A stretch of DNA of 64,000 nt from an uncultured Candidatus Saccharibacteria bacterium (GTDB lineage Bacteria; Patescibacteriota; Minisyncoccia; Phycocordibacterales; UBA5272), in assembly GCA_964635125.1 (NCBI GenBank), contig CAZWMQ010000002.1, positions 47,591-111,590 on the forward strand, written 5' to 3'. The translations under genes and the position numbers were made by a program. This document shows positions 19,879 to 64,000 of the stretch, piece after piece. Under the pieces are notes generated by a model, which saw only the letters and a list, made by a program, of their open reading frames with translations, did no database searches and was not told the DNA's origin. Within the stretch, counting starts at the first letter, position 1; each line of letters starts with the position of its first letter.

Positions 19879-19995
19879 TCTGTTCTCCCGAATAGCTACT
19901 CTTGCTAATTAAAGCTACCATCGCTCTATGAAGTCTTCACGATCCAGTTCGGAATGAGATGGTGTGTTACCCTTCATCCAAATCAGGAGAACAGA
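19879..19995 (-). rRNA. rrf: 5S rRNA
   Basis: Reverse complement aligns with bacterial 5S ('CCGAACTGGATCGTGAAGAC', 'GATGGTAGC...GAGTAGC'). Helix I 'GTTCTCCTGA'/'TCGGGAGAAC'. Confidence 0.8.
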
Positions 19996-21695: not shown

Positions 21696-22087
21696 CCCAC
21701 ACTATAAAGCTCTCTTTAAATCTTCAAAATCTAAAGAGAGAAAATAGGGTGCCGGTAAATTGGTACTACTCAATAATGGATCATACTGAACGTTACTCGT
21801 ATGATTAGGCTTTTTTTCTTCCGAACCCCAACTTCAAAGATTTCTTTTACAAGAAATAAATCCATTGTTTGTCGAACAAAAATGCTATTACTTTCAACAT
21901 GACTGTGATTGCATATTGAAAAACATTTCTGACGGAGGTGTTTCGCTTTCCTATCAACACCTCGTAGCGTTTACTAAAACTCTGCAGTTCTAGCTGATCA
22001 TTTAAGACCATTTCTCATTATTAACTAATCTCATACCAATTCCCGAGCAATACTTTCAAGCTCATAAAAAGAGCTTTATAGTGTGGG
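21696..22087 (-). repeat. 392-bp insertion in 23S flanked by perfect 18/19-bp inverted repeats
   Basis: 'CCCACACTATAAAGCTCTC' at 21696-21714 and 'AGAGCTTTATAGTGTGGG' at 22070-22087. Confidence 0.55.
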
Positions 22088-22691
22088 CAAGCCTTATTGC
22101 TAACTTACGGCTGCTTTTTTGCCTAGTTCCTTGGGGAGAAATCACTCGTTCGCCTTGGTCTACTCGACCTGAATACCTGTGTCGGTTTGCGGTACGGACT
22201 TATATAAATTTAAAGTATTGCGGATTTTGTGAATAATGTATCCTAGATGACTAGCTACATTATTCACAAAGCAATATCTACTATTCAGTAGATGTAGAAA
22301 CTTTTCTCGGCACAGTGCTCCTTTATCTTCACCGGTATTGCTACAAGCTTCACTTCATAACTCTCGGTATTCAAGAACTGATTTACATGCTCTTGCCAAT
22401 CATTACAAAGACCACAATCTGATAAGTGGCATAAAATACAACCATGCGTCATTCCATCACATTTATACAAGGTAAAGGAATATTAACCTTTTGTCCATCG
22501 CCTACGGCTCATCGCCATCGGCTTAGGCCCGACTAACTCTTCGCTGACAACCATTGCGAAGAAAACCTTATTCTTTCGGCGTGGGGGGATCTCACCCCCA
22601 TTGCGGTTACTTGTGCCAACATTCGTACTTCTACACGCTCCACGGCGGGTCACCCCTTCCGCTTCATCGCAGAGTAGAACACTCGTCTACC

Positions 22692-22836
22692 GATTGTAAT
22701 TTTCACAAGAAAGAGAAATAACTATTTACTAATTAGGGCGAAGGTCTGACTAATAAATTTATTAAAAAATAAATTTATTAATTCTGCTTCCAAACTATTA
22801 GTCATAATACTTATCTCCCTTGTGAAAATTACAATC
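22692..22836 (-). repeat. 145-bp intervening sequence in 23S flanked by perfect 18-bp inverted repeats (helix-45-type IVS)
   Basis: 'GATTGTAATTTTCACAAG' at 22692-22709 and 'CTTGTGAAAATTACAATC' at 22819-22836. AT-rich interior with a duplicated 12-bp palindrome 'AATAAATTTATT'. Lies ~1.2 kb from the 23S 5' end. Confidence 0.6.
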
Positions 22837-22911
22837 CCTAAACTTCGGTGATATGTTTGAGTCCCGATCATCTGTGGCGCAGAATCTCTCGATGGGTGAG
22901 CTGTTACGCTA

Positions 22912-22946
<35 letters not shown>

Positions 22947-23520
22947 CATTGTCAATGAAATTCCACCTCCTCACTTACACTTAACATATACTTAGGGACC
23001 TTAATTTTAGATCTGGGCTGTTTCCCTTTTGACCACCGGAGCTTCGCCCCCGGAGTCTTACTGCTAGACTATTAAACTTTGGTATTCGGAGTTTGATAGG
23101 TATTGCCGTATTTCTACTAGTCAAGACCTTCCAGTGCTCTACCCCCAAAGCGAACATCTAACGCTATTCCTATAAATATTTCGACGAGAACCAGCTATTA
23201 CCAAGTTCGATTAGCTTTTCACTCCAACCCACAAGTCATCCAAAAGAGTCGCACGACTTACTAGTTCGGGCCTCCACTTATCTTTCGACAAGCTTCGCCC
23301 TGCTCATGGGTAGCTCACCTGGCTTCGGGTCTTTATTATTCAACTATTATTTCGCGCTATTCACACTCGCTTTCGCTTATGACTCCATCACTTTATACGA
23401 CTTAGTCAGCTGAATAATAAAACTCGTTGGCTCATTCTTCAATAGGCACGCAGTCGAGGTGCAAGCACCTCTCCTACTCTTTGTAAACATATGGTTTCAG
23501 TTCTATTTCACTCCCCTCCC

Positions 23521-23564
<44 letters not shown>

Positions 23565-24454
23565 ACTCAAGGAATATTTAGCCTTACCGGTTAGTTCCGG
23601 CAGATTCACCCGAGCTATTCGTGTCTCGAGTTACTCAGGATAAGAGATAAAAAAGAGTTAAATATTTCGAATACGGGACTATCACCCTCTTTGGTGCTAC
23701 TTTCCAATAGCTTATACTATAAATAACTTTTGTAACTTTCCTAGATAATTCTACATCTCTTCCCTACAACCAACTTAGTATTACTACTAAGAATTTGGGC
23801 TTCTCTGTTTTCGCTCGCCGCTACTTGCAGAATAACATTGTTTTCTTTTCCTGTGGGTACTGAAATGTTTTACTTCCCCACGTACGCTTCTAAAGATATG
23901 CTCCCTAGATTCCAAGACTTTACTCTTGGAGAGTTTCCTCATTCAGATATCTTCGGATCGAAGGTTAAAAGGCACCTCCCCGAAGCTTATCGCAGCCTAA
24001 TCACGTCTTTCATCGCTTCCTTGAACCAAGGCATCCACCTTATGCTCTTATTTCCTATTAGGAAATATATTTACCATCTTTATTTTTAACACCGCTGTCA
24101 AAAATAAATATTATTTTTATACAGTGTCTATATTATTCTCATAATATAGACTTACCTTTATTTTCACATCTATATACATTGCCTGAAAAGACCCCAAGAT
24201 ATTTGGGATATCAAATTGTGCAATGCTATAGGATTCTATTGACAAATAACTTGTCTAAATTTTTGAAAATAAAAACCGCTTTTTAAGCGGCGACTAAAAA
24301 CACTTTTTAGAAGCTGCTTAATTTTTCTGTTTTAAATTCAACATATTTAGGTCTTTCAATATTAACATAATGGAAATAAAAATGCAAACCAATCTGATAT
24401 CTAATTGCTAGTATCTAGTTTCTAGTTAAAATAACCTTTCTAGATAACTATAGG

Positions 24455-25771
24455 TTATTTCGGAAGGTAATTTAGAGGATTAAGGTAAGCATTTAATGGA
24501 GCATATGGCATGACCATATAAGTTCCGCAAGTTCGGCTCTTATATTCCTTTGGACCAAATATTTTTACTGCATCGGAAGCAATTACCGTAAAGTGTAAAT
24601 GTGGCCCGGTCACATAGCCAGTTTCTCCGGATAAGCCAATCTGCTCTCCAGTTGATACTGTTTGTCCTTCTTTAACATCTATTACTGATAAATGCCCATA
24701 TAAAGTAGATAGTCCATTATTGTGTTTAATTAATACCCATTTACCATAGCTCGCTTTTTTACAAGCAAGATCAGTATTACCTGTTCCCATTACTATCCCA
24801 TCGCTAGCAGCCGTAACTTTAGTTCCAACTGAAGCTCCCAAGTCAATCCCATTATGACCATGACCATTATAAGCACCGGTCGCGGCAAAATCTGTGTCTC
24901 CAAAATATTGAGTGATAATATGTTTCTCCATTGGTCAAACTAATCCATTCCCTGTTGATGGTAATTTACTTTTATCTAAAATGTATTTTATTTTAGATTC
25001 ATAATCATTAATCTCATCTTGTAGATCTTCTACTTTGTTTTTATTTGCTTTAATTATAGCTTGATATTCTGCTTCTTCATTTTTAGTTTCTCTTAATAGA
25101 GAATTCTGCTCATCTTGATTATCTTTTATTAAACTTTGACGACTATTTAGATCTCGTGAGAGATTATTTAATTTATTTTTCTGATCGAGATAAATATTCT
25201 TATTATCCTCTAAATCCGAGATAGCTCCGTTAATTAAAGCAATCTTTTCAGTTAAAATTCCATTAAATGAGGTTAATTTATAAGTAGTGTTTAAAAAATC
25301 ACTCAAATTTCCGTCCCCTGCTTTAATTATATTTAAAAGAAAGTTATCTTTATCACCATATTCTCTTATTTCTTGTAAAGTATTAACTATTGCTTCTCGA
25401 TTTTCAGAAATTATATCGTTATTATCACTAATCTTATTAACCGTAGTTAAAATATTATTTTCAGCATTTTTAATTTTGAGATTGTTGAGTGAGATTTGAT
25501 TTTGTAAATCTTTCTTTTGAGATTCTAATTTTTGTATGGCCTTTTTTAAAGTATCTGCTTCGGCTTGAGTAGTGGCGACCTTATTACTATATTTATCAAT
25601 CTCAGCTTGGAGATCTGCAATCTGTTGATTACGATTATCTATTTCTTTTTGAAATTGAGTTATGTCTTGGGCAGAAGCTAACTTAATAGATATTTTAAAT
25701 AAAAATATTGAAAAAAAGAAAATTAATAACACCAAAAATACATTAATTGTTAATATCTTCTTACCCACCAT
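24455..25771 (-). CDS. EnvC-like M23 metallopeptidase: N-terminal TM, long coiled coil, C-terminal M23 domain. Merges 2 track ORFs through TGA
   Basis: The coiled-coil ORF (25771-24935) and the M23 ORF (24931-24455) share one frame across TGA at 24932-24934. That gives '...GNGLV-W-PMEKHIITQYFGDTDF', the conserved M23 'WP..G.I.S.FG' motif. Catalytic 'HNGIDLG' and 'GPHLHF' are present. Confidence 0.75.
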
Positions 25772-35192: not shown

Positions 35193-36326
35193 ATGACTAA
35201 TAATAAAGATATAGTATTAAATAAAAATACTGAATTAATATTGAATAATATTAAAAATATTAAAGATGGAGACACTATAGAAGGTCCAGTCTTAGCAATT
35301 ACTAAGAATGCTGTTTATGTTGATCTTGGTAATAATGGTACTGGAAGAATATATGGAATTGAGTATATTCATGCTAAAGACTTAATTAAAAGAATTAATA
35401 TTGGAGACTTGATCTCAGCTAAAGTACTTATGGCTTTAGATAAAGACGGATATATTGATTTATCACTACAAGAAGCAAGATTCGCTTTGATCTGGACTGA
35501 AGCTGAACAAGCTTTGAAAGAAAAAAGAAATATGAGTCTAGTTGTCAAAGATGCTAATAAAGGAGGATTAATCTTAGAGTGAAATAATTTAAATGGATTT
35601 TTACCTTCGTCTCAATTGAAAGGAGAAAATTATCCTAAAGTTACCGATGGAAACAAAGATCAAATCTTATCTGAACTTAAAAAATTAATTGGAGAAAGAG
35701 TTTCTGTGAATATTATTGCGGTAATTCCAAAAGAAGGTAAATTAATCTTCTCTGAAGCTAGTGATGACTTAGCTAAAGCTGCAAAAGGAGAAAAAAATGA
35801 AAAAGTAAAAGAAGCTACTAAGAATAATAAGACTCTGGCAAAAATTATCTCTAACTACAATCTAGGAGATAAGTTAGATGGAGTTGTAACTGGTATAGTT
35901 GACTTTGGAATCTTTGTAAAAATTGATAATGAGGTAGAAGGATTAATCCATAAAAGTGAAATTGATTGGGGCTTAGTTGAGAATACTAAAGACTATGCTA
36001 AGATTGGTGATAATGTTAAAGTTGAAGTAATTGAGATTAAAGATGGTAAGATTTCTCTATCAATGAAGAAATTAAAACCTAATCCATGATTAAATGCTTC
36101 TAAGAAGTACAAGAAAGGTGATGCTGTCGATGGAGTGGTAATCAGATTTAATAAGCATGGGGCTCTAGTCTCGGTTGAAGAAGGGGTTGCTGGGTTAATT
36201 CATATCTCTGATTTTGAAAATGAAGCTAAGATGAAAGAAGCTCTATCCCTCGGTAAAGTTTATAAATTTGAGATTAATTTATTCGATGGTAAAGATGAGA
36301 AAATGACTTTAACTTTAAAGAAGTAA
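35193..36326 (+). CDS. rpsA: 30S ribosomal protein S1 (4 S1 domains). Merges 3 track ORFs through 2 in-frame TGA
   Basis: TGA at 35580-82 gives 'GLILE-W-NNLNGFLPSSQL'. TGA at 36087-89 gives 'KLKPNP-W-LNASKKYKKGDAVDGVV'. Both TGA sit on the conserved S1 Trp positions. Confidence 0.8.
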
Positions 36327-49532: not shown

Positions 49533-50945
49533 TTATTTCTCTAACTTAATTCCTAACTCTTTTAAATGTTTCTGACTGGTCTTCGCTGGAGTTTGAATTA
49601 ATAAATCCTTTCCTTCCCCAGTCTTAGGAAAAGCAATTACTTCGCGAATATTAGGTTCGTTCAATAATATCATCATTAATCTATCAAATCCTCAAGCAAT
49701 ACCCCCGTGAGGTGGAGTCCCCGATTCAAAAGCTCTTAACATATGACCGAAATTATTCTCAATACTTTCCTCATTATAACCAAGTATTTCTAAAACATTT
49801 CGCAAGTCATTAGCTTTATGATTACGAATTGATCCTCCTCCGATCTCATATCCATTTAAGATCAAATCATATTGTTGAGTGTAAATATCAGCAATATTTT
49901 TCTTATTATTAACATCTTTTAATTGATTCTCTTTAGGACGAGAAAATGGGTTGTGAGTAAAAGTCCATTCTCCTTCAGCCTCTGGATCATCACTCTCAGC
50001 AGTTTTCTTAAAAAATGGGAAATCTACCACTCAAGCTAAAGCTAATAAATCTTTATCATTTTTATCTTTTCTTAGATCTGGTCTATCATTACCATATTTC
50101 TCCATGGCTTCAACATAAGTTAAGATTGGGAATGGTTTATCTTGAATCTTTTTCTCGGGAAATACATTTTCAATTAACTTTATAATTAATTCTTCGTTTA
50201 ACTTGCGAATTTCTGCTTCACTCATAAAACTAACCTCCATATCTAGCTGAGTGAATTCTGGTTGTCTATCTCCACGAGTATCTTCGTCTCGCATACATTT
50301 AGCAAATTGAAAATATCTCTCTAACCCTCCAGCCATTAATAATTGTTTATATTGTTGCGGTGATTGTGGTAGGGCATAAAATGTCCCTGGTGAGAGACGT
50401 GCTGGTACAATATAAGATCTTGCTCCTTCTGGAGTTGGATTAGTAAGAACTGGAGTTTCTACTTCTACAAAGTCCATTTTTAACAATTCACTTCTTAAGA
50501 AATTTTGAGCTTTAGATCTCATTCTTAGATTATGTTGAATTCTAGCTCGTCGCATATCTAAATACTTCTTCTCCAACCTAACTTCTTCATTAATCTCTTT
50601 ACCATCAGTAGATATATCAAAGGCGGGGGTCTCGGCTTCATTTAAAACCTTAATCTCTAAAATTTCTAATTCTAATTCACCATTAATGATGCCAACTTTA
50701 ATATTCTTCTCCGGGCGAGAATTAACTTTAGCTTTTATTTCTACTACTCATTCTGGTCTTAATTTCTCAGCTATAACTTTAGCTTCAGTCTGATTAGGTA
50801 AGACTACTCCTTGAACTTTACCACTATAGTCTCGTATATCTAAAAATATCAATTTGCCCTGATCTCTTCTTACATCTATTCAGCCTTTGACTAATACTTC
50901 TTCATTCAAATGTTTATTTAAATCTTTAATTAAAGTCCTTTCCAT
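49533..50945 (-). CDS. aspS: aspartate--tRNA ligase (4 in-frame TGA, all at conserved Trp/aromatic positions)
   Basis: TGA at 50880-82 gives 'VLVKG-W-IDVRRDQGKLIFLDIRD' (E. coli 'CGWVNRRRD'). TGA at 50748-50 gives 'LRPE-W-VVEI'. TGA at 50031-33 gives 'LLALA-W-VVDFPFF' (E. coli 'FLWVIDFPMF'). TGA at 49692-94 gives 'PPHGGIA-W-GFDRLMMILL'. Motif 2 'FQFAKCMRDEDTRGDRQPEFTQLD' is present. Confidence 0.85.
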
Positions 50946-53313: not shown

Positions 53314-56300
53314 TTAATTCTGAGATAATGCTTCGGATGTAGTGTTATCGTTTAATAGAATATTATTAACAAATCCCCTAGTTGACCAGAAAAAGTTTCC
53401 AGTTCCAACTCCATTTGTAATTCCTACATTAGTTAAGATTGATGGATTAGCTTCTTGATAAGTTTTCAAAGCATTCCAAGTCATATATCCGAAATAATTA
53501 GTCTCTTGCCCTAATGAACCAGGACCAGTTTCAGCTAATTTAAATCCTTTTAGATTTAAGAACTTTTGAAGAGCTTTGACTTCGTCTCCTATTGAACCTA
53601 ATTTTAGATTTTGGGTAAATTGATAAGCTGTCGCTCCTAATACTGACCCATTTCCTCCATTTGTAGTTGTTTGAGGTGGAATAAATATTGAGCCTCCACT
53701 AAAAGTCTGAGGAGTTGAAGTTGGATTACCGCCGCCGCCGCCGCCATTTTCCTCTACTCCTGTAATTGATATGTTTGTGCTAGTAGAGCTAGTTGCTCCA
53801 TCATTATCAGCTACAGTAAGTACTACATTATAATTCCCATTACTAGTATAAGTATGGCTTGGATTTAATCCTAAAGCACTATTACCATCTCCGAAATCCC
53901 AATTTAAATCAGAAATTGTTCCGTCTGTATCAGTTGAAGTATTTGTGAATAGTATAGTTGGATCATTAGAATTATCTACAATGAAACTCGCAATAGGGCT
54001 ATTGTTCTCATCGCCTTCGCCTTCTCCATCTCCACCATGATTACTGGTAACATTTACATCATAAGTTGATTCGTTACTCTTGTTGTTAGCTTTATCGACA
54101 GCAATTAGATGTATAGTATAATCGCCACTTTCTAAATCAGAAACATCAAATCCTCCTAACTCAACCGAACTAGTTGAGCTTCCAAAATTTGTCGCTCCAT
54201 TTGCCCAAGTAGTTACACAATTACTATTTCTAGTTCCTCCGATTTCTGTACTATCATTTTTCTTAGTCAACCAACAATAATAATAATTTAAATTAATGTC
54301 AGTTATATACCCAGAAAAAGCTTCTACATCGTCTGTTTGAGTAGCTGAGGTAATTTGAGCAACTGGTTTAATATTATCAACAGTTATCTTCCATAGATCG
54401 CTCCAAACACTTTGATTATTAGAACTATCAACGGCTTTGACTCTCCACCAATAATTAGTATCACTAACATTGGTAGCAGTCTTACTGGTGGTGCTATATT
54501 CTCCATGGAATCTTAAACTAGAAGCTGTGGAATTGTTATAACTTTCATAAATATAATGATCAACATCATCTGAACTATCACTCCAAACTTGAGTTATGCT
54601 TGCTCCATTAACTACGGAATTATTAGCTGGGCTCACTAAAAGTGGTTTAGCTGGGGGATTAGTATCAGGCATAGTCAACACAAAACTACTAGTCCAACCA
54701 GGGTTATAAGTATTTCCAGCCATATCAACTACATTAGCATTAGCACTATAAGTTCCTGATCCACATAGAGAACTAGTTGCATTTACATTATATATAGAAG
54801 AAATATCGTATTGTTTAGATCAAGATGAGCTTGTGCTAAATGGAGAAGTTATAAGATTAAACAAAAACCCTCCGCAACGAGCATTTATATTACTATTAAG
54901 TAATTGAAGATATACTCTATTCAAAGCTAAATTATCAGTTGAAGTTCCACTAACTGTAAATTTACCATTAACTACCGGACTAACACTAATAGTTGTAAAA
55001 GGAATAGTGTGATCGTAATAATAATGAACTGATGGACTCCAACCTCCGATGTTACCGGCCTTATCAATTCCTCTTACCCAGATAGTAACCCCTCCTTCTT
55101 CATTTGGGCCTGGTTGATGTCCTCTTGAAGTTCCGTTAACATCTCGACATCCTACCCATTTACCATTGATAGTAGTGGTTGCTGAACAAGTTGAGTCTCC
55201 AAAAGTATGTCCGTCATCATATTGGTAAGCGACTTGATAATGATCAATCTGTTCAGGATTTCCATTTATATCTTTGGTGATTGGATTCCAAGAATCATTA
55301 ATTGGGGTAATCCTAAACCATTGTCTTTCTCCTGGAGTTAAGATAGTGGTTATAGCTGGAGCAGCTGTATCAGAATTAAGTACTAAATTGTCTCGTACAG
55401 TTGACCCATTTCCTGCTTGATCAAATGGTACAGCAGTTACAGTAAATTGTCCCCCATTAACTACACCAAGTTCTTGTAATTTCTGAGCTGGGAATGTATA
55501 GTTAAATGTTCCGCTAGCATTACCTTTAACTATACCGAGAGCATAATGATAACCATAATCTGGATGAGTATTATGATAATAATAATTATAATTATAACTA
55601 TACCCATTACCAGGAGAAAGATACAACATAATATGATCGATACCGCTCAAATTATCAGAATATGTCCCCGTAACGGTTAAGTCATTATTGGTACTAACAT
55701 GACTCCCGGCATTTGGTCAAGTAAAAGTAACAATTGGGTCAGTGATATCATAATTAATTATAGAAGAAGTAGACCAGTCTGAAGTTTTATCATTATCTCC
55801 AACCGATCTAACTCTAAATACTCAAGGAGCTTCAATTCCTTTTGGAGTTGTTCCAAAAGCTTGATTTGGAATGCTGGTTATATTACCTAAATTTTCTGGG
55901 CTAGATCAAGTCAATCCACCATCTTTCGAATAAGAGTAATCGTAACTAGCGATTGGTTCTGGAGTAGTAGTTGGATTAGATCAGCTTGGGGTGATTAGAT
56001 CAACATTAGTTGAAGTAATAGAATGATTGGTACTATTTAGTCAAACTAAGTTGATTGGGGCAGATGGTGCTGGTGTTTCAAATGTATATTCTTTACACCC
56101 GGCTACTATTTTAGTAATTGTGTAATCGCCTAAGACCCCGCTACCAAGACTATATCCAATCGCTAAAACTTTAGCATTTGGAAATCTATTTAACCATTCT
56201 TCTGCTGTTCCAAACCAATTACTTCCATTTCCTCCTCCGGTATTTGGAGCATTATCTTTTACAAATTGCTGAGCACTATTTGATAGCCACCAATTATTTC

Positions 56301-58323
56301 CATAAATAGTTTCTCCGACTAAGATTCCGTCGGGGGTTCCGTCATTATTAAAATCTACAACTAATTGAGAGCTCGGAGCAATACTTCCAGAATTAGTTAT
56401 ATAATTAATAGTATCTGAAATATTATTAGTTCCTAGATCTTTTAGATCAAAATTAGTAACGAAATACCCTGCAGCCTTATCTGTAGAGGTGTTTCCTTCA
56501 GTCCAAATATGTAACCCGTTAGAAACAATCTGATTATGCCCTGTGGCTCTAGTCTCTGATAAATCCCATGTTGATAAATCAGTTGTTACAACTTGAGTAG
56601 GATTAGTACAGACATTTATTAATATTGGTTCGAAGTCATACTCATCATTAACGGTTGTAGTAATAACATGAAAATCATCAACATTCCCTGTAAAATTTGT
56701 CCAACCACTCCCTGCCTTAAATCCAACGGCTTGAAGTGTTCCGAGATTAATTCCTATATTTGGATAAAGAGCTATTAATTGAGAAAATGTACATGGATTA
56801 GATTGAGAACAATTATTATTGAATAAAGTTGATGCTTTGGATAGCCATCACTTACCATTTACAGCATTCCAAGTCTGCCATTGATTATCAGTAACTGTAC
56901 CATTTAAATATGGTTCATATACTAATCGACCTTGCCATCCTAAATTACTATCAGTAACATCTTTTGTTATATTTAACTGAATAGATGGAGCAATCGTATT
57001 ATTACCACTTTGGACATAAGTTGAATAATCTATTGTAGAAATGTCTGATAACTTTGTTCCACCATATTGTGGAAGTGCAACTAAATATCCCTCTCCTGAA
57101 GTAGCGACGGATATTTCTAAACTCCCAGATCCTAATGGTGCAGTAGCTGGTCCATTAACATAGTCTGCACTTCCGCCATTTCCATTATCATCGATTGGAG
57201 TTCATCCATGTAAATCTCCAGGTTTAACTATAATCATATTTAGACTTGGGGTAGTCGTCCCGCTTCCAGATCCTCCACCACCACCGCTAGAAATTGGGTC
57301 TGTAGTCTCAGTAAGTGTCGAACTAGTGGCAAAGTTAGTCCCGTCAGTCGCTACTACAAACATGGCATAGCTAGTAGAAGCTGTTAAACCAGTAATAGCT
57401 GAGCTTGTAGAAGTAGTAGAACCATAAGAAGCTCCATCCTTAAATACTTCGTAAGAAGTAGCTCCAGATACATCATTCCAATGAAGTACAAAAGAAGTCG
57501 AAGTTAAATTAGACACATATAAGTTCGGAGCAAATAAAGTCGAACTTGAAGTAGTAGCTGCCGCTAAAGTAGTCTCTTCTAAAGAAGCAATTCCTGATAC
57601 ATTTCCAGCATTATCAAATGCCGCCACAGTTAAAATATAAGTAGAAAAAGCAGTTAATCCAGAAATTGTAAAGTTAGTGTTGGTTGTAGTTGCAATAGTT
57701 GTGCTAGCCGAGCTTTGTAATTTATAACCTACAGAATAATAAGCTATACCGCTTCCAGTATCTATTGAAGGATCTCAAGTTAATCCGATAGAATTACTAG
57801 TAACAGAAGTCGTAGCGAAATTAGCTGGTGTAGATGGGGCAGTATTGTCTACAGTAGAAGTAGAAATTAAATCTCCAGTTAAAACAACATTAGAAATTAT
57901 TGCATTATCAAGATTAGAAGGATTCCCTAACAATCTAAAAACTAAACTGAAATTACTATTAGAAGAAGTAGCATTATATGGTATAGATATACTTATATGC
58001 CCGACTTCACTAGAAGAAGTAGTTCCGGTCTCACCTTCGATACTACCAAGAGATTGAACCTTAGCCGCACCAGTATCAATATTATATCCATAATCTAAAA
58101 AATCTCCTGGTTCTAAACTACGAATATCATAATCGAAAGATAAATTTAAATTATTATAAAGACTAGTATCGGTAGCAATCTTTTTAAAACCGGCTGGGCC
58201 AGTTATAGTTGATGATGCTGTTTGATTAATTAAAGTTGTTCCACCTGTTGCTAAAGCATAATATAAAGATATACCGGCAACAGCAGTAAGAACAATTCCA
58301 AAAATTGATAATATTTTTTTCAT
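53314..58323 (-). CDS. giant (~1669 aa) secreted surface protein with signal peptide, FN3, PKD and a C-terminal peptidoglycan-binding domain; at least 10 in-frame TGA
   Basis: Track ORFs 57775-58323, 57202-57627, 54820-55650 and 53314-54723 share one frame across TGA. The 57775-77 and 54820-22 junctions were checked codon by codon. Between 55651 and 57201 the - strand carries many TGA codons. FN3 'FAPNLYVSNLTSTSFVLHWNDVSGATSYEVF'. PKD 'DLNWDFGDGNS'. PG-binding 'LKLGSIGDEVKALQKFLNLKGFKLAETGPGSLGQETNYFGYMTWNALKTYQ'. TAA stop at 53314-16. Confidence 0.55.
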
Positions 58324-58593
58324 ATTTTTATTTTTAAATTTTTATGAAGTTTTTAAAACGAAATAATTCGCTAATAAATTAATAATAAAGAAAGAACAAC
58401 ACAACACTTAATTTATTAAAGATAAATAAGCATTTACCAACTTATACATAGACAATCTACATATTATTTTAAGTATATAACCATCAAAATCTAATGTCAA
58501 TATAGAAATAGTTTTACTTTTACTAAAAATATGTTAAAATAAATCTAAATTCTTAAGTCTTGGTTCTTGCAACTTGAAACTTGACTCTTGAAT

Positions 58594-58660
58594 GCAGTGG
58601 TAGCTCAGCTCAAGTAAGAGATTCTGCGAGCACCGCCCGTAATGGACGGAAAGTGGAAAT
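58594..58660 (+). pseudogene. partial duplicate of the tRNA-Asp 5' half with a divergent continuation
   Basis: 'GCAGTGGTAGCTCAGCT' is identical to the tRNA-Asp 5' end and is followed by non-tRNA sequence. Preceded by five CTTGNNN heptamers. Confidence 0.5.
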
Positions 58661-58697
58661 CAAAAACTGAATTGATATATTTCTGTAATAAAAATAT

Positions 58698-58771
58698 GCA
58701 GTGGTAGCTCAGCTGGTTAGAGCACCGCCCTGTCACGGCGGGGGTCGTGGGTTCGAGTCCCATTCACTGCG
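58698..58771 (+). tRNA. tRNA-Asp (anticodon GUC)
   Basis: Acceptor GCAGTGG/TCACTGC, D-arm GCTC-AGCTGGTTAG-AGCA, anticodon stem CCGCC/GGCGG with loop CTGTCAC, T-arm GTGGG-TTCGAGT-CCCAT. Confidence 0.85.
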
Positions 58772-58940
58772 CAAAAAATAATGAGAAACTCTAAAAGAGT
58801 TTAGAATATATTTTTGGCTAAGGAGCGAGGCTCGAACTAAATTGTCTGCAAAGCCAGTTTTTAATTTTGAAGAAATGAAAAACTGAGACAATTTATGCAG
58901 GGTCGAGAAATGATGAGTGAAGCGAATATATTTGGTGACC

Positions 58941-58963
58941 GAGTCCCATTCACTGCGCAAAAA
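58941..58963 (+). repeat. 23-bp direct repeat of the tRNA-Asp 3' end (58755-58777), att-like
   Basis: 'GAGTCCCATTCACTGCGCAAAAA' occurs twice, 186 bp apart. Confidence 0.6.
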
Positions 58964-59034
58964 TAAAAAGTTAATAATTAATTTGTATATATAAACTAAT
59001 TATGATATTATAAATCTACTATTTTTATAGTATA

Positions 59035-59105
59035 TAGCGGAATGGAGTAAAGGTAACTCGCAAGGCTCATAACCTTGAAACCCAGGTTCGAATCCTAGTT
59101 CCGCA
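59035..59105 (+). tRNA. tRNA-Met (CAU), initiator-like (A11:U24, unpaired 1.72)
   Basis: D-arm GAGT-AAAGGTA-ACTC, anticodon stem CAAGG/CCTTG with loop CTCATAA, T-loop TTCGAAT. One C.A mismatch in the T-stem. Confidence 0.6.
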
Positions 59106-59143
59106 ACAATTTTGATTTTCTTTACTCCATTCTATTTTAGCGG

Positions 59144-59214
59144 AATGAATTAAAGTTAAACTCAGCAAGCTCTAACCTTGAAACCCAGGTTCGAATCCTA
59201 GTTCCGCAACAAAT
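59144..59214 (+). pseudogene. degenerate copy of the initiator-like tRNA; D-stem disrupted, anticodon loop CTCTAAC (would read as CUA)
   Basis: The acceptor, T-arm and 3' half are identical to 59035-59105. The D-arm and anticodon stem are mutated. Confidence 0.45.
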
Positions 59215-59251
59215 AATACAAGAACTCTGAAAATAAATATTTGTAGAGTTT

Positions 59252-59782
59252 TTAACTATCCTTTTTAAATCTTCTCTCATTCTCTACATTATAAGCCAAC
59301 CAAAAAGAAGACATGTAAATAGCCCACCACAATATCTGAATAAGAGAAGAATTCATTCCATGATATATCATATAAAATTTTTCTATGGTCCATAAAATCA
59401 TACCTAGTATCATAGCCCATCTTTTTCCTTTATAAATAAACAAGCCAATAAATAACATCAAAAATACATCCACTAAAGAACCGATCTCTAGATAATTTAC
59501 TATGATAAATATTAATGTTACCAATGAAGAAAATAACATCAATAAAAAACTAATTCCTCTAGCAGATTGAGTTATTTTTAGAGAATTATAGTTCTCTATT
59601 TGATAGTTTATCTCTTCTTTGTTTAATTTCCACCAAAAAATCCAATGCTGTTTTCTTTTTTTCTTACTATTAATACCTCCGGTAGATTCTTTCTTTATTA
59701 TAATTTCTTTTCCACAATTACTACAAAATCTATTACCATCTTCTAATTCTTTTTTACAATTTGTACAAAAATTTTTATTCAT
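59252..59782 (-). CDS. zinc-ribbon plus membrane protein (hypothetical)
   Basis: N-terminal 'CTNCKKELEDGNRFCSNCGKE' followed by 4 TM helices. Confidence 0.45.
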   Translation of the reverse strand: MNKNFCTNCKKELEDGNRFCSNCGKEIIIKKESTGGINSKKKRKQHWIFWWKLNKEEINYQIENYNSLKITQSARGISFLLMLFSSLVTLIFIIVNYLEIGSLVDVFLMLFIGLFIYKGKRWAMILGMILWTIEKFYMIYHGMNSSLIQILWWAIYMSSFWLAYNVENERRFKKDS

Positions 59783-60079
59783 ATATTAAATTTAATACTT
59801 TAAATCAAAAATACCCGCAAATATAATTATAACCCAAAAAGAAATAAAAGATAAAGATGCGAAACACAAAAAGATAATAATAATCTTTAAAAGAAAATCT
59901 GCATTTTTTAAAAAATTACTTTTTTCATAAATATAATAAGTGAAAAAACTAGACATTAAAATAGGAAGGATTAATAATATATATATTATTCATAAATTTT
60001 AATTATTGTTATATACAATATAACATAAATTAAGATTATTTATACATAGTAACCAACTACTAAAAACTAGCTAATATAT

Positions 60080-60156
60080 TGGTGTCAGTAGGTGGAATTG
60101 AACCACCGACCTTGGCTTTATGAGTGCCACGCTCTAACCAACTGAGCTATACTGAC
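60080..60156 (-). tRNA. tRNA with CAU anticodon (elongator Met or Ile2-lysidine type); CCA encoded
   Basis: Reverse complement: acceptor GTCAGTA/TACTGAC, D-arm GCTC-AGTTGGTTAG-AGCG, anticodon loop CTCATAA, T-arm GGTGG-TTCAATT-CCACC, 3' ACCA. Confidence 0.75.
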
Positions 60157-60201
60157 TTATCTTGAAAATATAACATATTTAAAGAGATTTTTCTAACTAT
60201 T

Positions 60202-63200
60202 TTATTGAGTAGGAGTTGAGGTAGCTTCTGATGTGGGTGTTGATTCTGGGGTTATTTGTGGTTCAGTTGTTGGAGTTGAGTCAGGTGTTGAAGTTGATTC
60301 TGATGTAGTTTCAGTAGAGTTCGAAAAATTGTCATCTATAGTATTTGAGGTAGTTGAGCTATTGTCTGAATTAGTCTCAGTAGTTGAAGATCCATTACTA
60401 ATATCAGGAGTAGTCGTTCCGTTATCTGTATTTGTTTCTAAAGTGGTTGAGCCATTATTATCTGAGCTTGAAGAAAACTCGCTTCCTCCACTAGTATTGG
60501 TATTGCTATTCGAAGAAGAATTTTGAGTATTTAATAATTCTTGTAATTGATTAGCATTAGTACAAACTTGCTGCCCATTTTCATTAATCAAACAAAGTTT
60601 CTTCGTCTCAATAAGATCAGAATATAATTTTACAAAATATCCTCTGATAGCAGAAATTCTTAATACTACCAGGTTAGTTAGTAATTCATACCCGGATGAT
60701 AATCTATTATGAATTGTTTGTAAAACATCTATATTATTTTCATTGGTTATAAGATCTATGGTGTTAGTAGCATCACTATTAATTGTTAAAAGAGAATCGC
60801 TACCATTTAAAGTATTGAAAGTTGATTTTAAAGAAGCTACAATATATGGAGTGAATCCTCCATAATTGACTCCTTTCAATCCTCCTGGGTCAGTAGAAAC
60901 CAAATCCGAAAATAATTGTTCTACTTCTTGGGCTATAAATCCAGTATGCTTTGAGCTTGAGCTAGACTCTATTTTCCAATTATAACTAACAGGGTTTAAA
61001 ATTAAAAGTTTATCTAAGACCGATAAGGAGCTAGTAGCTATATTATTATTTAAAACAAACTGAACTTCACTGTTATTTAAAATTGCCGAAGTATTAACTA
61101 AATCTATATTCTTCTTTAAATTAATATCGGAAGAACAAGTCAAAGAAGTTGTATTTGGACTAATCGTACAATTCCCACTACTATTAGTAAATCTAGCGAC
61201 TACACCTGAAATACTACTATTACCAACATCTAAAGTGTATTGTGGAGTAGATGTAGCAATACCTATATAATCACTACTCAAATCCCCATAAATAGTATTC
61301 CCAATATTCAATTGATTATTAGAGGTAGAAGCAGTAACATCTACATTATAACCAATTAAGATATTGTCATGACCGGTAGTGATAGAGTCTCCAGCTTGAT
61401 AACCAATAGCTGTGTTATTGTATCCAGTGCTATTATTATATAAAGCACTCAATCCAATACCAGAGTTACTTCCTCCAGTAGTATTATTTCTAAGAGTTCC
61501 TCGACCAACTGCCACATTAGATTGTCCAGAAGTAGTATTTTGAAGAGCATAAGATCCAAGTCCAACATTGTCACTAGAACTTGTGGCGCTATTAATAGCT
61601 TGATAACCGATAGCCACATTATCTAATCCAGTTAAGTTATTCTGTAAAGCATAAGTACCTAAAGCCAGGTTTCCACTTCCACTAGTGTTAGCAGCTAAAG
61701 AGTTAACTCCAAGTCCAACATTATCATTTCCATCAATATTAAATCCTAAAGCATCATTACCTATAGCTATATTATTAGTACCTATAGTATTAAAATCTAG
61801 AGCATATGGTCCGATGGCGACATTATTTTGAGAACTAGTAGAGTGATTAAGAGCTAGGTGACCAATGGCTATGTTGTAGCTTCCAGTAGTCATACTCTGC
61901 ATAGCATCAAATCCTATGGCTGTATTTCTATTACCACTAGTTATATTTTGTAAAGATTCAGATCCTACTCCTGTATTATATTGTCCGGAGGCTGATGAAT
62001 TACCTGAGTTACCAAAGAAATAGCTGTTTAAGGTTGTGGAGGCAAAGACGAGAGAAGTTCCATTTAAAGTAACTTGACTTGTAGTACTAACTATCACTCC
62101 TGTTTCATTTAACCAAGAAGCTGTGGTGCCATTAGTATATAAGAATTTACCAGCATTGCCAGATTGAGATGGAAGACCTCCACCTGAAACTGTCGCCCAA
62201 GCTACCACTCCACTTCCATTAGTTTGTAAGACTTGTCCGTTAGTTCCATCAGTATTAGGTAAAGTGTAGGCTCCGATCTTTAAGGTTCCAGTGAAGCTAC
62301 CGGTTCCGGCAACAGTTAGGGTTTCATTTAGAGTAGAAGTTCCAATCCCAATCTTTCCACCAGAAATAGCTGTGGTGGTTGGATTACCAGAAGTAGTTGA
62401 ATATAATCCTGTTCCAAATAATATTCCACCAATGTTAAGAGAGTTAGTGGTTGCATTAGGTAAAGAAACATTGGTTCCAATAATAATATTGTTATTACCT
62501 ATGTTATTAGAAGTAAAAGACATACCAGCTTGATAACCAATCAGATTAGAGTATTGAGCATTATCTGCTCCATATCCAGCAGATGTCCCAATGAAGTTTG
62601 AATTATCTGCATCAGTTGCACTATATCCAGCATTATAACCAAGGAAGTTAGCATAAGAAGTTCCATTTGCACTATATCCAGCAGAATCACCAATGAAGTT
62701 AGATTCATCTGAACTGCTAGCATTATGTCCAGCATCTGTCCCGATAAAGTTAGAATATGGCGAACTAGTAGCATTCTGCCCAGCACTTGTCCCAATGAAG
62801 TTAGAATCATTCGAATTGCCAGCATTCATACCAGTATTTAAACCAAAGAAGTTAGAGTCTCCGGAATTAGCTGAATAATTACCGGCTTGATGACCGAAGA
62901 AGTTAGAATAACTTGAATCATGAGCATTTTGTCCAGACCAACCAATATAGTTAGAGATAGAGTTATAAGCTTGATAACCAGCATAATAACCAATACCTAC
63001 TGCTCCAGCTGAATTATAAGCACCATATCCAGCACTTAGACCAAAGAAGTTAGTGGCTCAAGAACCATTAGCTCCATAACCAGCATTTTCTCCTAAGAAA
63101 TTAGATTCGTGAGTACCAGTAGCATTTTGTCCAGCTCCATCTCCTAAGAATACTGATTGATAAGCATCTGATCCGTTTCCAGCATTATTACCTAAGAATA

Positions 63201-64000
63201 TATTTCTACCAGTATAAGTAGTTGATCCTACTCCAGCATTAAGTCCTGGAGTATATATAGTATTTAAAGTACTAGAAGCAATTGGAGAAGAAATAGTAAT
63301 TACTCCAGAACCATTGTCAGAGATTGTTGTTCCATATTGTCCGGTTAGATTAAGTAAGGTAGATGAGCCATTGGTTACTCCATTTGTTTTTAGAGTGATT
63401 GAGCCCCCTCCCACTGTCTGCCAAGATCCATCATCTCTTAAGAACTTAGTACCGTCTGGAGTTCCAGTAATAGATAATTTAGAGATAGCAATAGAGCCGG
63501 CTAACATTGAATTAGTTACTTTACTTGCTCCAATAGTAGTGACAATAGATGTAGTTCCTGAACCACTAACATCACCTGAGAGAGTAATAGTTTGATTACC
63601 AGTTAAATAATCAGTTCCGGGAGTGGCTATTGCTAAAGTGTTTGCTCCAGTTCTCTTAATTAGTCCGTTAGAAGATAATCCTGTAATAGTATCTTGAGTA
63701 ATAGAGCCACCTAATGGAATAGCTACTCCAGCAATGGTAATTGTGGCATTAGCTAAGTTAGCATTAGTAATACCAGCAGTTCCTGATAGATTAGCATTAG
63801 TTAGTCCTGAGATAGAACCACCTAAGGTTAGGTTTCCTGAAGTAGCAACTGTTCCGGTTAAAGTAAGACCGGAGACAGTTCCAGTTCCTCCTACTGAAGT
63901 AACTGTTCCTACTGAGACATTACCTGATCCTAAGAGAGAGTTACTATTAACTGTCTTAATATTAGTTCCTGAGACTAAGGTGTCTTGTTTTCCATTAATC
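60202..64000 (-). CDS. giant fibre-like surface protein, 5'-truncated by the window edge, with YadA-head-like 14-residue repeats, a beta-rich shaft, a peptidase-S74 intramolecular-chaperone (auto-cleaving) domain and an S/T/P/E-rich tail; multiple in-frame TGA
   Basis: The frame continues upstream of the track M at 62829 through TGA codons, e.g. 63058-60, into track ORF 63058-63507 and beyond 64000. 14-mer repeats 'xSNFIGxxAGxxAx'. S74 motifs 'SSDINLKKNIDLV', 'PVSYNWK', 'GFIAQEVEQLFSDLV' and 'LKGVNYGGFTPYIVASLK'. Confidence 0.6.

What the first reader, a model, noticed from the sequence alone, without database searches (positions are those of the whole stretch)
59035..59214. Tandem initiator-like tRNA-Met and a degenerate twin whose anticodon loop now reads CUA
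Copy 1 carries initiator hallmarks: A11:U24, unpaired 1.72 and the CAU anticodon. Copy 2, 38 nt downstream, shares the acceptor and T-arm exactly but has a broken D-stem and the anticodon loop CTCTAAC, which would give an amber-reading CUA anticodon. It is most likely a decaying duplicate. In a genome that has already reassigned UGA, a UAG-reading tRNA-like gene deserves a check. An inverted copy of the tRNA 5' segment ('CTTTACTCCATTC' at 59122-59134) lies between the two copies.
Basis: seen in the sequence. Interest (0 to 1): 0.5.

Follow-up and report, generated by a model that had tools for sequence, protein, structure and literature searches.

The report
Degenerate tandem copy of initiator tRNA
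A small uncultured bacterium carries its initiator methionine tRNA gene followed by a recent, damaged second copy whose anticodon loop happens to read CUA; TAG still works as a normal stop codon, so this is an ordinary tRNA pseudogene and not a new codon reassignment.

Summary
Copy 1 (59036-59106) is a good initiator-type tRNA-Met(CAU). Copy 2 (59139-59209) has the same acceptor stem, T arm and 3' half, and its loop CTCTAAC gives a CUA anticodon.

Copy 2 falls just below both detectors: Rfam tRNA 28.0 bits against a gathering score of 29, and ARAGORN finds it only at 90% of its threshold. It has an A11·C24 mismatch, no G19, an extra base before the anticodon stem, and a 4-bp anticodon stem topped by G27·A43.

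All related Patescibacteria loci recovered (six distinct contigs) have a single copy: promoter, tRNA-Met, terminator. In the window the ancestral promoter precedes copy 1 and the ancestral terminator follows copy 2, so this is a lineage-specific 103-nt internal tandem duplication. All seven differences hit positions that are invariant in the relatives.

TAG is a clean stop: 11 of 49 ORFs end in TAG, at natural protein ends where this could be checked, and no gene needs in-frame TAG or a TAG start. TGA = Trp is confirmed, and was already reported for this phylum in a 2026 preprint.

Verdict: a co-transcribed pseudogene, probably from a replication template-switch event. Low interest.

The parts
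59002..59031 (+). Promoter-like site upstream of copy 1, in the position of the promoter region of the single-copy gene in relatives. By eye there is also TTTGTA-N17-ATATTAT with TG.
   Evidence: Consensus scan. Compared by eye with the TTTGCA-N17-TTATTAT region upstream of the tRNA in relatives. Inference only.
59036..59106 (+). Copy 1: functional initiator-type tRNA-Met(CAU), with an A1·A72 mismatch, A11:U24 and no encoded CCA.
   Evidence: ARAGORN; Rfam tRNA 56.8 bits. It is 100% identical to the gene in L125 and 97-99% identical to the genes in five other relatives.
59107..59138 (+). 32-nt spacer between the copies. No promoter-like or terminator-like site lies in it.
   Evidence: It is absent from all relatives.
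59120..59132 (-). Inverted copy of tRNA positions 5-17 (copy 1 version), 13/13 complementary to 59040-59052.
   Evidence: the repeat finder I17; no window shuffle gives two matches. In a fold of 59030-59140 it forms a 15-bp helix, -26.4 kcal/mol, z = -3.0.
59139..59209 (+). Copy 2: degenerate duplicate (pseudogene). The acceptor stem and T arm are intact. The D stem has A11·C24 and G19 is lost. There is one extra base between the D and anticodon stems. The anticodon stem has 4 bp plus G27·A43, and the loop is CUCUAAC.
   Evidence: Rfam tRNA 28.0 bits against a gathering score of 29. ARAGORN calls it only at -ps90. The MFE fold is not a cloverleaf, and in context it folds no better than shuffles, z = -0.19.
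59172..59174 (+). CTA at the anticodon position of copy 2. It arose from CAT by loss of the middle A together with loss of one G from the 5' strand of the stem.
   Evidence: Alignment of the copies read by hand; ARAGORN drawing.
59173..59212 (+). 40-nt block identical to 59070-59109, running from the third anticodon base to 3 nt beyond the tRNA end.
   Evidence: the repeat finder D2, spacing 103 nt. Logan contigs L001 and L002 both end at window position 59183, which is where a k=31 graph would break in this repeat (the k value is my inference).
59220..59253 (+). Terminator-like hairpin plus U run after copy 2. It corresponds to the hairpin that follows the single tRNA-Met in relatives.
   Evidence: Fold gives -9.5 kcal/mol, z = -3.2. 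blastn aligns the downstream flank of relatives to 59210-59254, and the sequences are shown. The strict consensus scan did not call it because of its low G+C.
58594..58655 (+). Neighbouring rearrangement: a degenerate 5' part of tRNA-Asp sitting behind the conserved Asp promoter motif (58526-58541). The intact tRNA-Asp follows at 58698-58772.
   Evidence: (D5).
58940..58963 (+). Neighbouring rearrangement: a 24-nt duplicate of the tRNA-Asp 3' end, running from the T loop to 5 nt past the gene.
   Evidence: (D3).

Best explanation
Copy 2 is a young, lineage-specific pseudogene made by an internal 103-nt tandem duplication of the initiator tRNA-Met gene.

The ancestral unit was promoter, tRNA, hairpin terminator. 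In this genome the promoter still precedes copy 1 and the terminator now follows copy 2. Copy 2 is therefore most likely transcribed passively, as a 3' trailer of the initiator precursor.

The duplication carried a short inverted piece of the tRNA into the spacer, and left seven clustered changes (3 substitutions, 2 insertions, 2 deletions) in positions 10-35 of copy 2. The flanking 48 nt stayed identical. That pattern fits a single error-prone replication template-switch or repair event better than slow neutral decay.

The CUA 'anticodon' is a by-product of two single-base deletions. It does not decode anything of consequence: TAG remains a stop codon. A molecule with an initiator acceptor stem (1·72 mismatch), a damaged D arm and no MetRS anticodon identity would be poor both as an elongator suppressor and as an initiator.

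Shown here: the anatomy, the sub-threshold scores, the absence in relatives, the split of the ancestral flanks, the clustering of changes, and clean TAG usage. Inferred: co-transcription, the template-switch origin, and lack of aminoacylation.
For: (1) All recovered relatives have one tRNA-Met followed by CAAGAA and a hairpin. This holds for L041, L117, L122, L123/L126/L127 (one contig family), L124 and L125, whose AspRS is 73-77% identical in nucleotides and about 79% in amino acids. None has the spacer, the inverted piece or copy 2. A metagenome scan for the tandem arrangement found 0 hits.

(2) The 5' and 3' repeats have the same 103-nt period. The upstream context of the relatives matches copy 1, and their downstream context matches the sequence after copy 2.

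(3) Copy 2 scores 28.0 bits against 56.8 for copy 1. ARAGORN finds it only at -ps90, and draws a D-stem mismatch, a 2-nt linker, G·A at 27:43 and a 3-nt variable loop.

(4) The 29-nt 5' segment is identical in copy 1 and all relatives (pattern match). All 7 changes in copy 2 fall within positions 10-35 (five inside that segment, two in the anticodon arm just beyond it), and copy 1 and every relative are identical to one another across positions 10-35.

(5) The clustering of the changes is non-random: P is about 0.005 for 7 changes falling within 26 of 74 nt, and about 5e-5 for no change in the 3' 43 nt at the 5'-half divergence rate.

(6) TAG ends 11 of 49 ORFs. Of the ten submitted to Pfam, the four with a domain reaching near the C-terminus end at the profile end: GDPD 243/244, FtsW/RodA 353/356, Peptidase_S26 168/168 and Glycos_transf_1 171/172. 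Every ORF has an ATG within a few codons of its upstream stop, so none needs a UAG start.

(7) No promoter-like site lies between the copies, and a terminator-like hairpin occurs only after copy 2.

(8) The adjacent tRNA-Asp is inverted relative to all relatives and has its own 5' and 3' fragments. The locus is therefore a local rearrangement hot spot.

(9) In E. coli an initiator tRNA with a CUA anticodon starts translation at UAG, is charged mostly with Gln, and is a poor synthetase substrate (10.1101/524249).
Against: Copy 2 is only just below both detection thresholds. It keeps a perfect acceptor stem and T arm, which together form the minihelix recognised by RNase P and the CCA-adding enzyme (my knowledge).

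Its anticodon loop keeps the canonical 7 nt with U33 and a purine at position 37. The two insertions and two deletions cancel out, so the length stays 71 nt.

An unpinned G27·A43 pair combined with a CUA anticodon has been reported to favour UAG read-through in a bacterial tRNA-Thr (PMC13092985).

The perfect identity of the 3' 43 nt could also reflect selection or gene conversion rather than youth.

Only 64 kb of the genome could be checked for TAG usage. No expression data exist.
Confidence: 0.82

Rival explanations
1. Copy 2 is a working or nascent UAG-reading tRNA. It would be either a weak amber suppressor with a 4-bp 'unpinned' anticodon stem, or an amber initiator. Either way it would mark an early step towards a second stop-codon change in a lineage that already reads UGA as Trp.
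For: The loop is CUCUAAC with U33 and A37. The acceptor stem and T arm are intact. The scores are near threshold. Copy 2 lies inside a transcription unit. A G27·A43 pair combined with CUA is reported to help UAG read-through. An initiator tRNA with CUA initiates at UAG in E. coli.
Against: TAG terminates 11 of 49 ORFs, at natural protein ends where this could be checked, with no in-frame TAG and no need for TAG starts. Copy 2 is absent from all relatives, including L041, which also reads TGA as Trp. The D arm is damaged, G19 is lost, and the linker and variable loop are abnormal. The 1·72 mismatch disfavours EF-Tu binding and the CAU identity element for MetRS is gone (established knowledge). 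The code-4 Minisyncoccia genomes described in the preprint lack prfB; if that also holds here, RF1 would be the only class I release factor and could not be lost to free UAG (inference; release-factor genes were not checked in this window).
Confidence: 0.03
2. The 40-nt direct repeat, running from the anticodon loop to just beyond the 3' end, is an attL/attR pair. It would have been left by a tRNA-targeting integrative element that has since been almost entirely deleted.
For: The repeat starts in the anticodon loop and extends 3 nt past the gene. tRNA-Asp next door has a 24-nt 3' repeat that starts in its T loop. Both are classical integrase sublocations (my knowledge). The content of the interval between tRNA-Met and the next tRNA varies among relatives.
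Against: Only 63 nt lie between the repeats. No integrase or recombinase domain was found in the flanking ORFs that were tested. An att duplication does not explain why the sequence left of the repeat is an 80%-identical 5' half of the same tRNA in exact 103-nt register, nor the inverted 13-mer.
Confidence: 0.08
3. The pseudo-tRNA and the inverted 13-mer together form a selected cis element. It would control maturation or the level of the initiator tRNA, either through an alternative 15-bp helix that sequesters the 5' part of copy 1, or as a tRNA-like processing signal for the 3' trailer.
For: The precursor 59030-59140 folds into a 15-bp helix, -26.4 kcal/mol, z = -3.0. The acceptor/T minihelix of copy 2 is intact.
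Against: It is not conserved in any relative. Co-transcriptional folding would form the cloverleaf before the spacer is made (inference). Copy 2 in its context folds no better than shuffles.
Confidence: 0.04
4. The tandem arrangement is an assembly artefact, with two strain variants of one locus joined head to tail.
For: The source is probably a metagenome-assembled genome. Short-read contigs break inside the repeat.
Against: The unique 32-nt spacer with its inverted fragment is not what variant collapse produces. Two independent Logan assemblies end exactly where a true 40-nt repeat would break a k=31 graph (my inference about k). The neighbouring tRNA-Asp shows similar real rearrangements.
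Confidence: 0.03

Closest known systems
tRNA pseudogenes from tandem duplication followed by degeneration (duplication-random-loss; 'tRNA remolding' when the anticodon changes, PMC4783518)
   Same: A head-to-tail duplicate of a tRNA gene in which one copy stays intact, the other accumulates structural damage, and the anticodon is altered.
   Different: Remolding ends with a functional tRNA of a new identity and loss of the ancestral gene. Here the altered copy is structurally damaged, the ancestral gene is kept, and no codon needs the new anticodon. The known cases are mostly organellar or eukaryotic, whereas this one is in a Patescibacteria chromosome.
Engineered amber initiator tRNA (E. coli tRNA-fMet with a CUA anticodon; 10.1101/524249 and the references in it)
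   Same: An initiator-type body (1·72 mismatch, same acceptor stem) carrying CUA.
   Different: The engineered tRNA differs from the wild type only in the anticodon and keeps the A11:U24 pair and the three G-C pairs. Copy 2 has lost A11:U24 and G19 and has only one G-C pair next to the loop. No TAG start codons are needed in the window.
Natural suppressor tRNA(CUA) genes of stop-codon-recoded phages and bacteria
   Same: A CUA anticodon in a genome whose lineage tolerates stop-codon change.
   Different: Those tRNAs are well formed, are conserved within their clades, and accompany abundant in-frame TAG. None of that holds here.
att-site duplications of tRNA 3' ends made by integrases
   Same: A perfect direct repeat that starts in the anticodon loop (Met) or T loop (Asp) and runs just past the 3' end.
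   Different: There is no element and no integrase, and the repeat is preceded by a recognisable 5' half in register.

Membership tests
Functional bacterial tRNA (Rfam RF00005 / ARAGORN) - copy 2 | Reaches the curated detection score | tested here: not met
   28.0 bits against a gathering score of 29. ARAGORN is silent at default settings and at -ps95, and calls it only at -ps90.
Functional bacterial tRNA (Rfam RF00005 / ARAGORN) - copy 2 | 7-bp acceptor stem and 5-bp T stem with a GTTCRANYC-type loop | tested here: met
   Identical to copy 1, including its A1·A72 and C50·A64 mismatches.
Functional bacterial tRNA (Rfam RF00005 / ARAGORN) - copy 2 | Paired D stem, with G18 and G19 available for the elbow contact | tested here: not met
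   The stem is AAUU/AACU with A11·C24. The D loop is AAAGUUA, so G19 has become U.
Functional bacterial tRNA (Rfam RF00005 / ARAGORN) - copy 2 | 5-bp anticodon stem, 7-nt loop with U33 and R37, a single nucleotide at position 26, and a variable loop of at least 4 nt | tested here: inconclusive
   The loop CUCUAAC is canonical. The stem, however, has 4 bp plus G27·A43, there are two nucleotides between the D and anticodon stems, and the variable loop has 3 nt.
Functional bacterial tRNA (Rfam RF00005 / ARAGORN) - copy 2 | Conserved in related genomes | tested here: not met
   Found in 0 of 6 distinct related contigs. The tandem-pattern scan of metagenomes gave 0 hits.
Bacterial initiator tRNA-fMet - copy 1 | Mismatch at 1:72, A11:U24, and a CAU anticodon | tested here: met
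   A1·A72, G10-C25/A11-U24/G12-C23/U13-A22, and CAT at 59068-59070.
Bacterial initiator tRNA-fMet - copy 1 | Three consecutive G-C pairs (29:41, 30:40, 31:39) in the anticodon stem | tested here: not met
   The pairs are A29-U41, G30-C40 and G31-C39, so only two are G-C. From my own knowledge, AU/GC/GC variants exist in some mycoplasmas and other bacteria, so this weakens the assignment without excluding it.
UAG (amber) reassignment or suppression | In-frame TAG at conserved sense positions, with TAG avoided as a terminator | tested here: not met
   11 of 49 ORFs end in TAG, at Pfam profile ends where testable. No gene is split at TAG. Extensions past TAG run 0-30 codons to the next stop, apart from the ORF ending at 15738, where the separate RodA/FtsW gene follows in the same frame. 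Only the 64-kb window was examined.
   In AspRS, 4 of 4 TGA align to W of the T. thermophilus enzyme and to TGG in relatives. There are 35 in-frame TGA against 128 TGG in 49 ORFs. tRNA-Trp(UCA) and loss of prfB could not be checked in this window.
Integrase att-site duplication at a tRNA gene | Direct repeat of the tRNA 3' part flanking an element that encodes an integrase | tested here: not met
   The repeat is present, but only 63 nt lie between its copies, and no integrase domain was found in the neighbouring ORFs that were tested.
Tandem duplication with degeneration (tRNA pseudogene) | Head-to-tail copies in one register, ancestral flanks split between them, and absence from the outgroups | tested here: met
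   The 5' and 3' repeats share a 103-nt period. The promoter context sits before copy 1 and the terminator context after copy 2. Relatives are single-copy.

The most novel reading that the evidence does not exclude
Copy 2 is expressed, processed at its intact acceptor/T minihelix and charged at a low level. It would then act as a weak UAG decoder, either as an amber initiator or as a suppressor with an unpinned 27:43 pair. That would make it a snapshot of the very first step of a second stop-codon change, in a Patescibacteria lineage that has only recently turned UGA into Trp.
Probability: 0.03. Interest if true: 0.8.

Novelty: new member of a known kind. Interest (0 to 1): 0.15.

Why it matters
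It matters mainly as a negative result. A CUA-anticodon tRNA-like gene in a genome with a reassigned UGA could be taken for evidence of a second recoding, or be auto-annotated as 'tRNA-Pyl' or 'tRNA-Sup'; ARAGORN does exactly this once its threshold is relaxed. The comparative evidence shows it is a private, damaged duplicate and that TAG is still a stop.

There are two minor positive points. First, it gives a clean example of a complex micro-rearrangement (duplication, inverted insert and clustered mutations) at a bacterial tRNA locus, with the neighbouring tRNA-Asp affected as well. Second, the window adds an independent instance of the UGA-to-Trp code that was reported in Patescibacteria only in 2026.

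Tried and rejected
- The genome-contig scan with the 21-nt T-arm/acceptor pattern was too general.
- The metagenome scan for the tandem arrangement found nothing. The second scan, with a pattern matching either 5' half, found only single-copy relatives. The same pattern in viral contigs found only a contig already seen, so a phage origin for copy 2 was dropped.
- No other copy of the divergent 5' half of copy 2 exists in the window with up to 3 mismatches, so it was not templated from elsewhere in these 64 kb.
- Exact-protein look-up of the neighbouring ORF gave only two short Logan contigs that stop inside the repeat. They give no strain variation.
- Searches for the run accession SRR11845633 in papers, and for the relatives' accessions in the gTranslate supplement, found nothing. 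The exact GTDB lineage of the window is therefore not established.
- I looked for an integrase or recombinase next to the tRNAs and found none.
- I considered UAG initiation and rejected it: every ORF has an ATG close to its upstream stop.
- I tried to decide which of the tRNA-Asp copies keeps the ancestral 3' flank. The flanks are too short and AT-rich to tell.

Full report
**What is there.** ARAGORN finds four tRNAs in the window, including tRNA-Asp(GTC) at 58698-58772, tRNA-Met(CAT) at 59036-59107 and a second CAT tRNA at 60080-60156 on the minus strand. Rfam scores the tRNA-Met at 56.8 bits. A permissive Rfam search of 58500-60400 adds a second tRNA match at 59139-59209. It scores 28.0 bits, just under the gathering score of 29 (E = 0.0034).

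ARAGORN ignores copy 2 at default and 95% thresholds. At 90% it reports it as 'tRNA-Pyl(cta)'.

**Copy 1.** The D stem is GAGU/ACUC, which gives A11:U24. Positions 1 and 72 are an A·A mismatch. The anticodon stem is CAAGG/CCUUG, the loop is CUCAUAA, and no CCA is encoded. Except for having two rather than three G-C pairs next to the loop, these are the bacterial initiator hallmarks.

**Copy 2 compared with copy 1.** The first 9 nt are identical. So are the last 40 nt, 59070-59109 = 59173-59212, from the third anticodon base to 3 nt beyond the gene.

Between those blocks there are seven changes, read by hand:
- substitutions G10A, G12U and G19U;
- one inserted A in the 3' side of the D arm;
- one inserted A before the anticodon stem;
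- loss of one G from the 5' strand of the anticodon stem;
- loss of the middle A of CAU.

The result, as drawn by ARAGORN, has these features:
- a D stem with an A·C mismatch and no G19;
- two nucleotides instead of one between the D and anticodon stems;
- a 4-bp anticodon stem topped by G27·A43;
- a canonical-looking 7-nt loop CUCUAAC, with CTA at 59172-59174;
- a 3-nt variable loop.

On its own, copy 2 does not fold into a cloverleaf. With its upstream spacer it folds no better than shuffled sequence (z = -0.19).

**The inverted fragment.** CTTTACTCCATTC at 59120-59132 is a perfect reverse complement of tRNA positions 5-17 in the copy 1 version. No shuffle of the window produces two matches to this 13-mer. 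The spacer between the copies is 32 nt, not 38.

**Relatives.** The genome scan used too general a pattern, but it still yielded two Patescibacteria MAG contigs, L041 and L117, with a 98.6% identical tRNA-Met and a tRNA-Asp that is 97-100% identical over the aligned stretch. A metagenome scan with a pattern that accepts either 5' half gave L122 to L126, and the viral collection returned L127, which is the same contig as L126. Their AspRS genes are 73-77% identical to the window's in nucleotides and about 79% in amino acids, and gene order around the tRNAs is shared.

In every one of these contigs the tRNA-Met is single. It is preceded by a conserved promoter-like region and followed by CAAGAA, a hairpin with a U run, and then (in L122-L126) directly by the convergent CAT tRNA. 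None has the spacer, the inverted 13-mer or copy 2. A dedicated scan for the tandem arrangement in metagenomes found nothing.

In the window, the upstream context of the relatives matches the sequence before copy 1. Their downstream context, including the hairpin (59220-59253, -9.5 kcal/mol, z = -3.2), matches the sequence after copy 2. The 5' and 3' repeats share one period of 103 nt. The simplest description is therefore an internal 103-nt tandem duplication specific to this lineage.

The T-stem C50·A64 mismatch is shared by both copies and by L125. It therefore pre-dates the duplication, or was homogenised afterwards.

**Pseudogene or new tRNA?** Four lines of evidence favour a pseudogene.

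1. All seven changes fall in positions 10-35, where copy 1 and all relatives are identical to one another even though their protein genes differ by about 25%. The functional gene is under strong constraint and copy 2 is not.

2. The scores are about half those of the real gene.

3. TAG is a working stop. Under code 4, a non-overlapping set of 49 ORFs ends 38 times in TAA and 11 times in TAG. Of the ten TAG-ended ORFs submitted to Pfam, the four with a domain reaching near the C-terminus stop at or within 3 positions of the profile end: GDPD 243/244, FtsW/RodA 353/356, Peptidase_S26 168/168 and Glycos_transf_1 171/172. Extensions beyond TAG are short, and no gene needs read-through. Every ORF has an ATG within a few codons of its upstream stop, so UAG initiation is not needed either.

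4. The body of the molecule is an initiator. A 1·72 mismatch disfavours EF-Tu, and MetRS identity lies in the CAU anticodon (established knowledge). In E. coli an initiator tRNA with CUA initiates at UAG, is charged mainly with Gln, and is a poor synthetase substrate (10.1101/524249). Copy 2 has in addition lost A11:U24 and all but one of the G-C pairs that license P-site binding.

A further point concerns release factors. The code-4 Minisyncoccia genomes described in the preprint lack prfB. If that holds here, RF1 is the only class I release factor, so UAG could not easily be freed. This is an inference.

**Points against a simple 'dead gene'.**
- The scores are only just below threshold.
- The acceptor/T minihelix is perfect and the loop is canonical.
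- The indels cancel, so the length is unchanged.
- G27·A43 combined with CUA has been reported to favour UAG read-through in another bacterial tRNA (PMC13092985).

I therefore keep a small probability (0.03) for weak activity.

**Origin.** The changes are strongly clustered. P is about 0.005 for seven changes falling within 26 of 74 positions. P is about 5e-5 for no change in the 3' 43 nt at the divergence rate of the 5' half.

Together with the inverted 13-mer at the junction, this fits a single replication template-switch or repair event. Such an event would produce a duplication with an inverted insert and error-prone synthesis near the breakpoint. This is an inference and cannot be tested here. 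Gene conversion of the 3' half is an alternative.

An integrase att remnant is less likely. The repeat does begin in the anticodon loop. But only 63 nt separate its two copies, no integrase is nearby, and an att duplication would not explain an in-register 5' half.

The locus as a whole is unstable. In all relatives tRNA-Asp is divergent from tRNA-Met. In the window it is on the same strand. It is preceded by a degenerate Asp-like 5' fragment (58594-58655) behind the conserved promoter motif, and followed by a 24-nt copy of its 3' end (58940-58963).

**Expression (inferred).** There is no promoter-like site between the copies, and the only hairpin terminator follows copy 2. Copy 2 is therefore probably transcribed as a trailer of the initiator precursor. 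The inverted 13-mer can pair with the 5' part of copy 1 in a 15-bp helix (-26.4 kcal/mol, z = -3.0). Because this element is absent from the relatives, I treat it as a by-product and not a regulator.

**Genome context.** All four TGA codons of the AspRS gene (49533-50945, minus strand) align with Trp in the T. thermophilus enzyme and with TGG in the relatives. L041 shares one of them. In the 49 ORFs there are 35 in-frame TGA and 128 TGG.

The relatives are Patescibacteria MAGs. UGA-to-Trp in that phylum (class Minisyncoccia) was first reported in a May 2026 preprint (10.64898/2026.05.24.727570), so this context is recent but known.

**Verdict.** This is a new example of a known kind of feature, a tRNA pseudogene made by tandem duplication, and it is of low interest.

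Noticed in passing
whole window; e.g. 49533-50945(-), 53314-58323(-), 24455-25771(-), 35193-36326(+): The genome reads TGA as Trp. There are 35 in-frame TGA against 128 TGG in 49 ORFs. In AspRS, 4 of 4 TGA align to Trp or TGG in homologues. The relative L041 shares one TGA, while L117, L125 and L127 have TGG at these sites. The relatives are Patescibacteria, which matches the first report of code 4 in class Minisyncoccia (gTranslate preprint, 2026).
   Followed up: yes
58520-58970: tRNA-Asp (58698-58772) is inverted relative to its orientation in all six related contigs. It is flanked by a degenerate Asp-like 5' fragment (58594-58655, behind the conserved AAATATGTTAAAATA motif at 58526-58541) and by a 24-nt copy of its 3' end (58940-58963). 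This is a second micro-rearrangement next to the tRNA-Met duplication.
   Followed up: partly
20289-24061(-), 19883-19990(-): The 23S rRNA spans 3773 nt for a 2925-position model, so about 850 nt are extra. There is a weak group I intron hit at 21248-21425 (22 bits, E = 0.017). 5S is adjacent, but no 16S lies beside the 23S in the window.
   Followed up: partly
59252-59782(-): A 176-aa zinc-ribbon membrane protein gene sits between the tRNA-Met terminator and the convergent CAT tRNA only in this genome. In L122-L126 the two tRNAs are separated by the terminator alone, and L117 has a different insert of about 1.4 kb. This intergenic slot varies in content across the clade.
   Followed up: partly
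59082-59100 and L041, L117, L122-L125: The T stem of the initiator tRNA varies among relatives in steps that pass through mismatches: CUAGG/CCUAG (L041, L117), CCAGG/CCUAG with C50·A64 (window, L125), and CCAGG/CCCGG with A51·C63 (L122-L124).
   Followed up: no
60080-60156(-): The second CAT-anticodon tRNA (69.6 bits) matches the Rfam 'Plastid-ycf2 5'UTR' model on its antisense strand (38 bits). That Rfam model may correspond to the reverse complement of trnI-CAU (my inference). The tRNA is probably the lysidine-modified tRNA-Ile2 and not an elongator Met.
   Followed up: no
53314-58323(-) and 60202-63999(-): Two very large Ser/Thr/Asn-rich surface-type proteins flank the tRNA cluster. The first is 1669 aa with nine in-frame TGA. 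By eye it has a fibronectin-III-like sequence pattern ('LTWD') and a peptidoglycan-binding-like C-terminus. The second is over 1265 aa with a Peptidase_S74 (endosialidase chaperone) domain, as in phage tail fibres.
   Followed up: partly
L126 / L127 (Ga0116182_1000821 = IMGVR_UViG_3300009666_001272): The same 33-kb contig is listed both as a metagenome contig and as a viral genome in IMG/VR. Yet it carries AspRS and the tRNA-Asp, tRNA-Met and CAT-tRNA cluster in synteny with the window. It looks cellular, or at most prophage-containing.
   Followed up: no
relatives, between tRNA-Asp and tRNA-Met (e.g. L125 1960-2030; L126 5270-5330): A conserved near-palindromic motif, AATATTTTAACATATT, followed by GTTTGCAAAAA, lies between the divergent tRNA-Asp and tRNA-Met genes in all relatives. 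It is probably a shared bidirectional promoter or operator.
   Followed up: no
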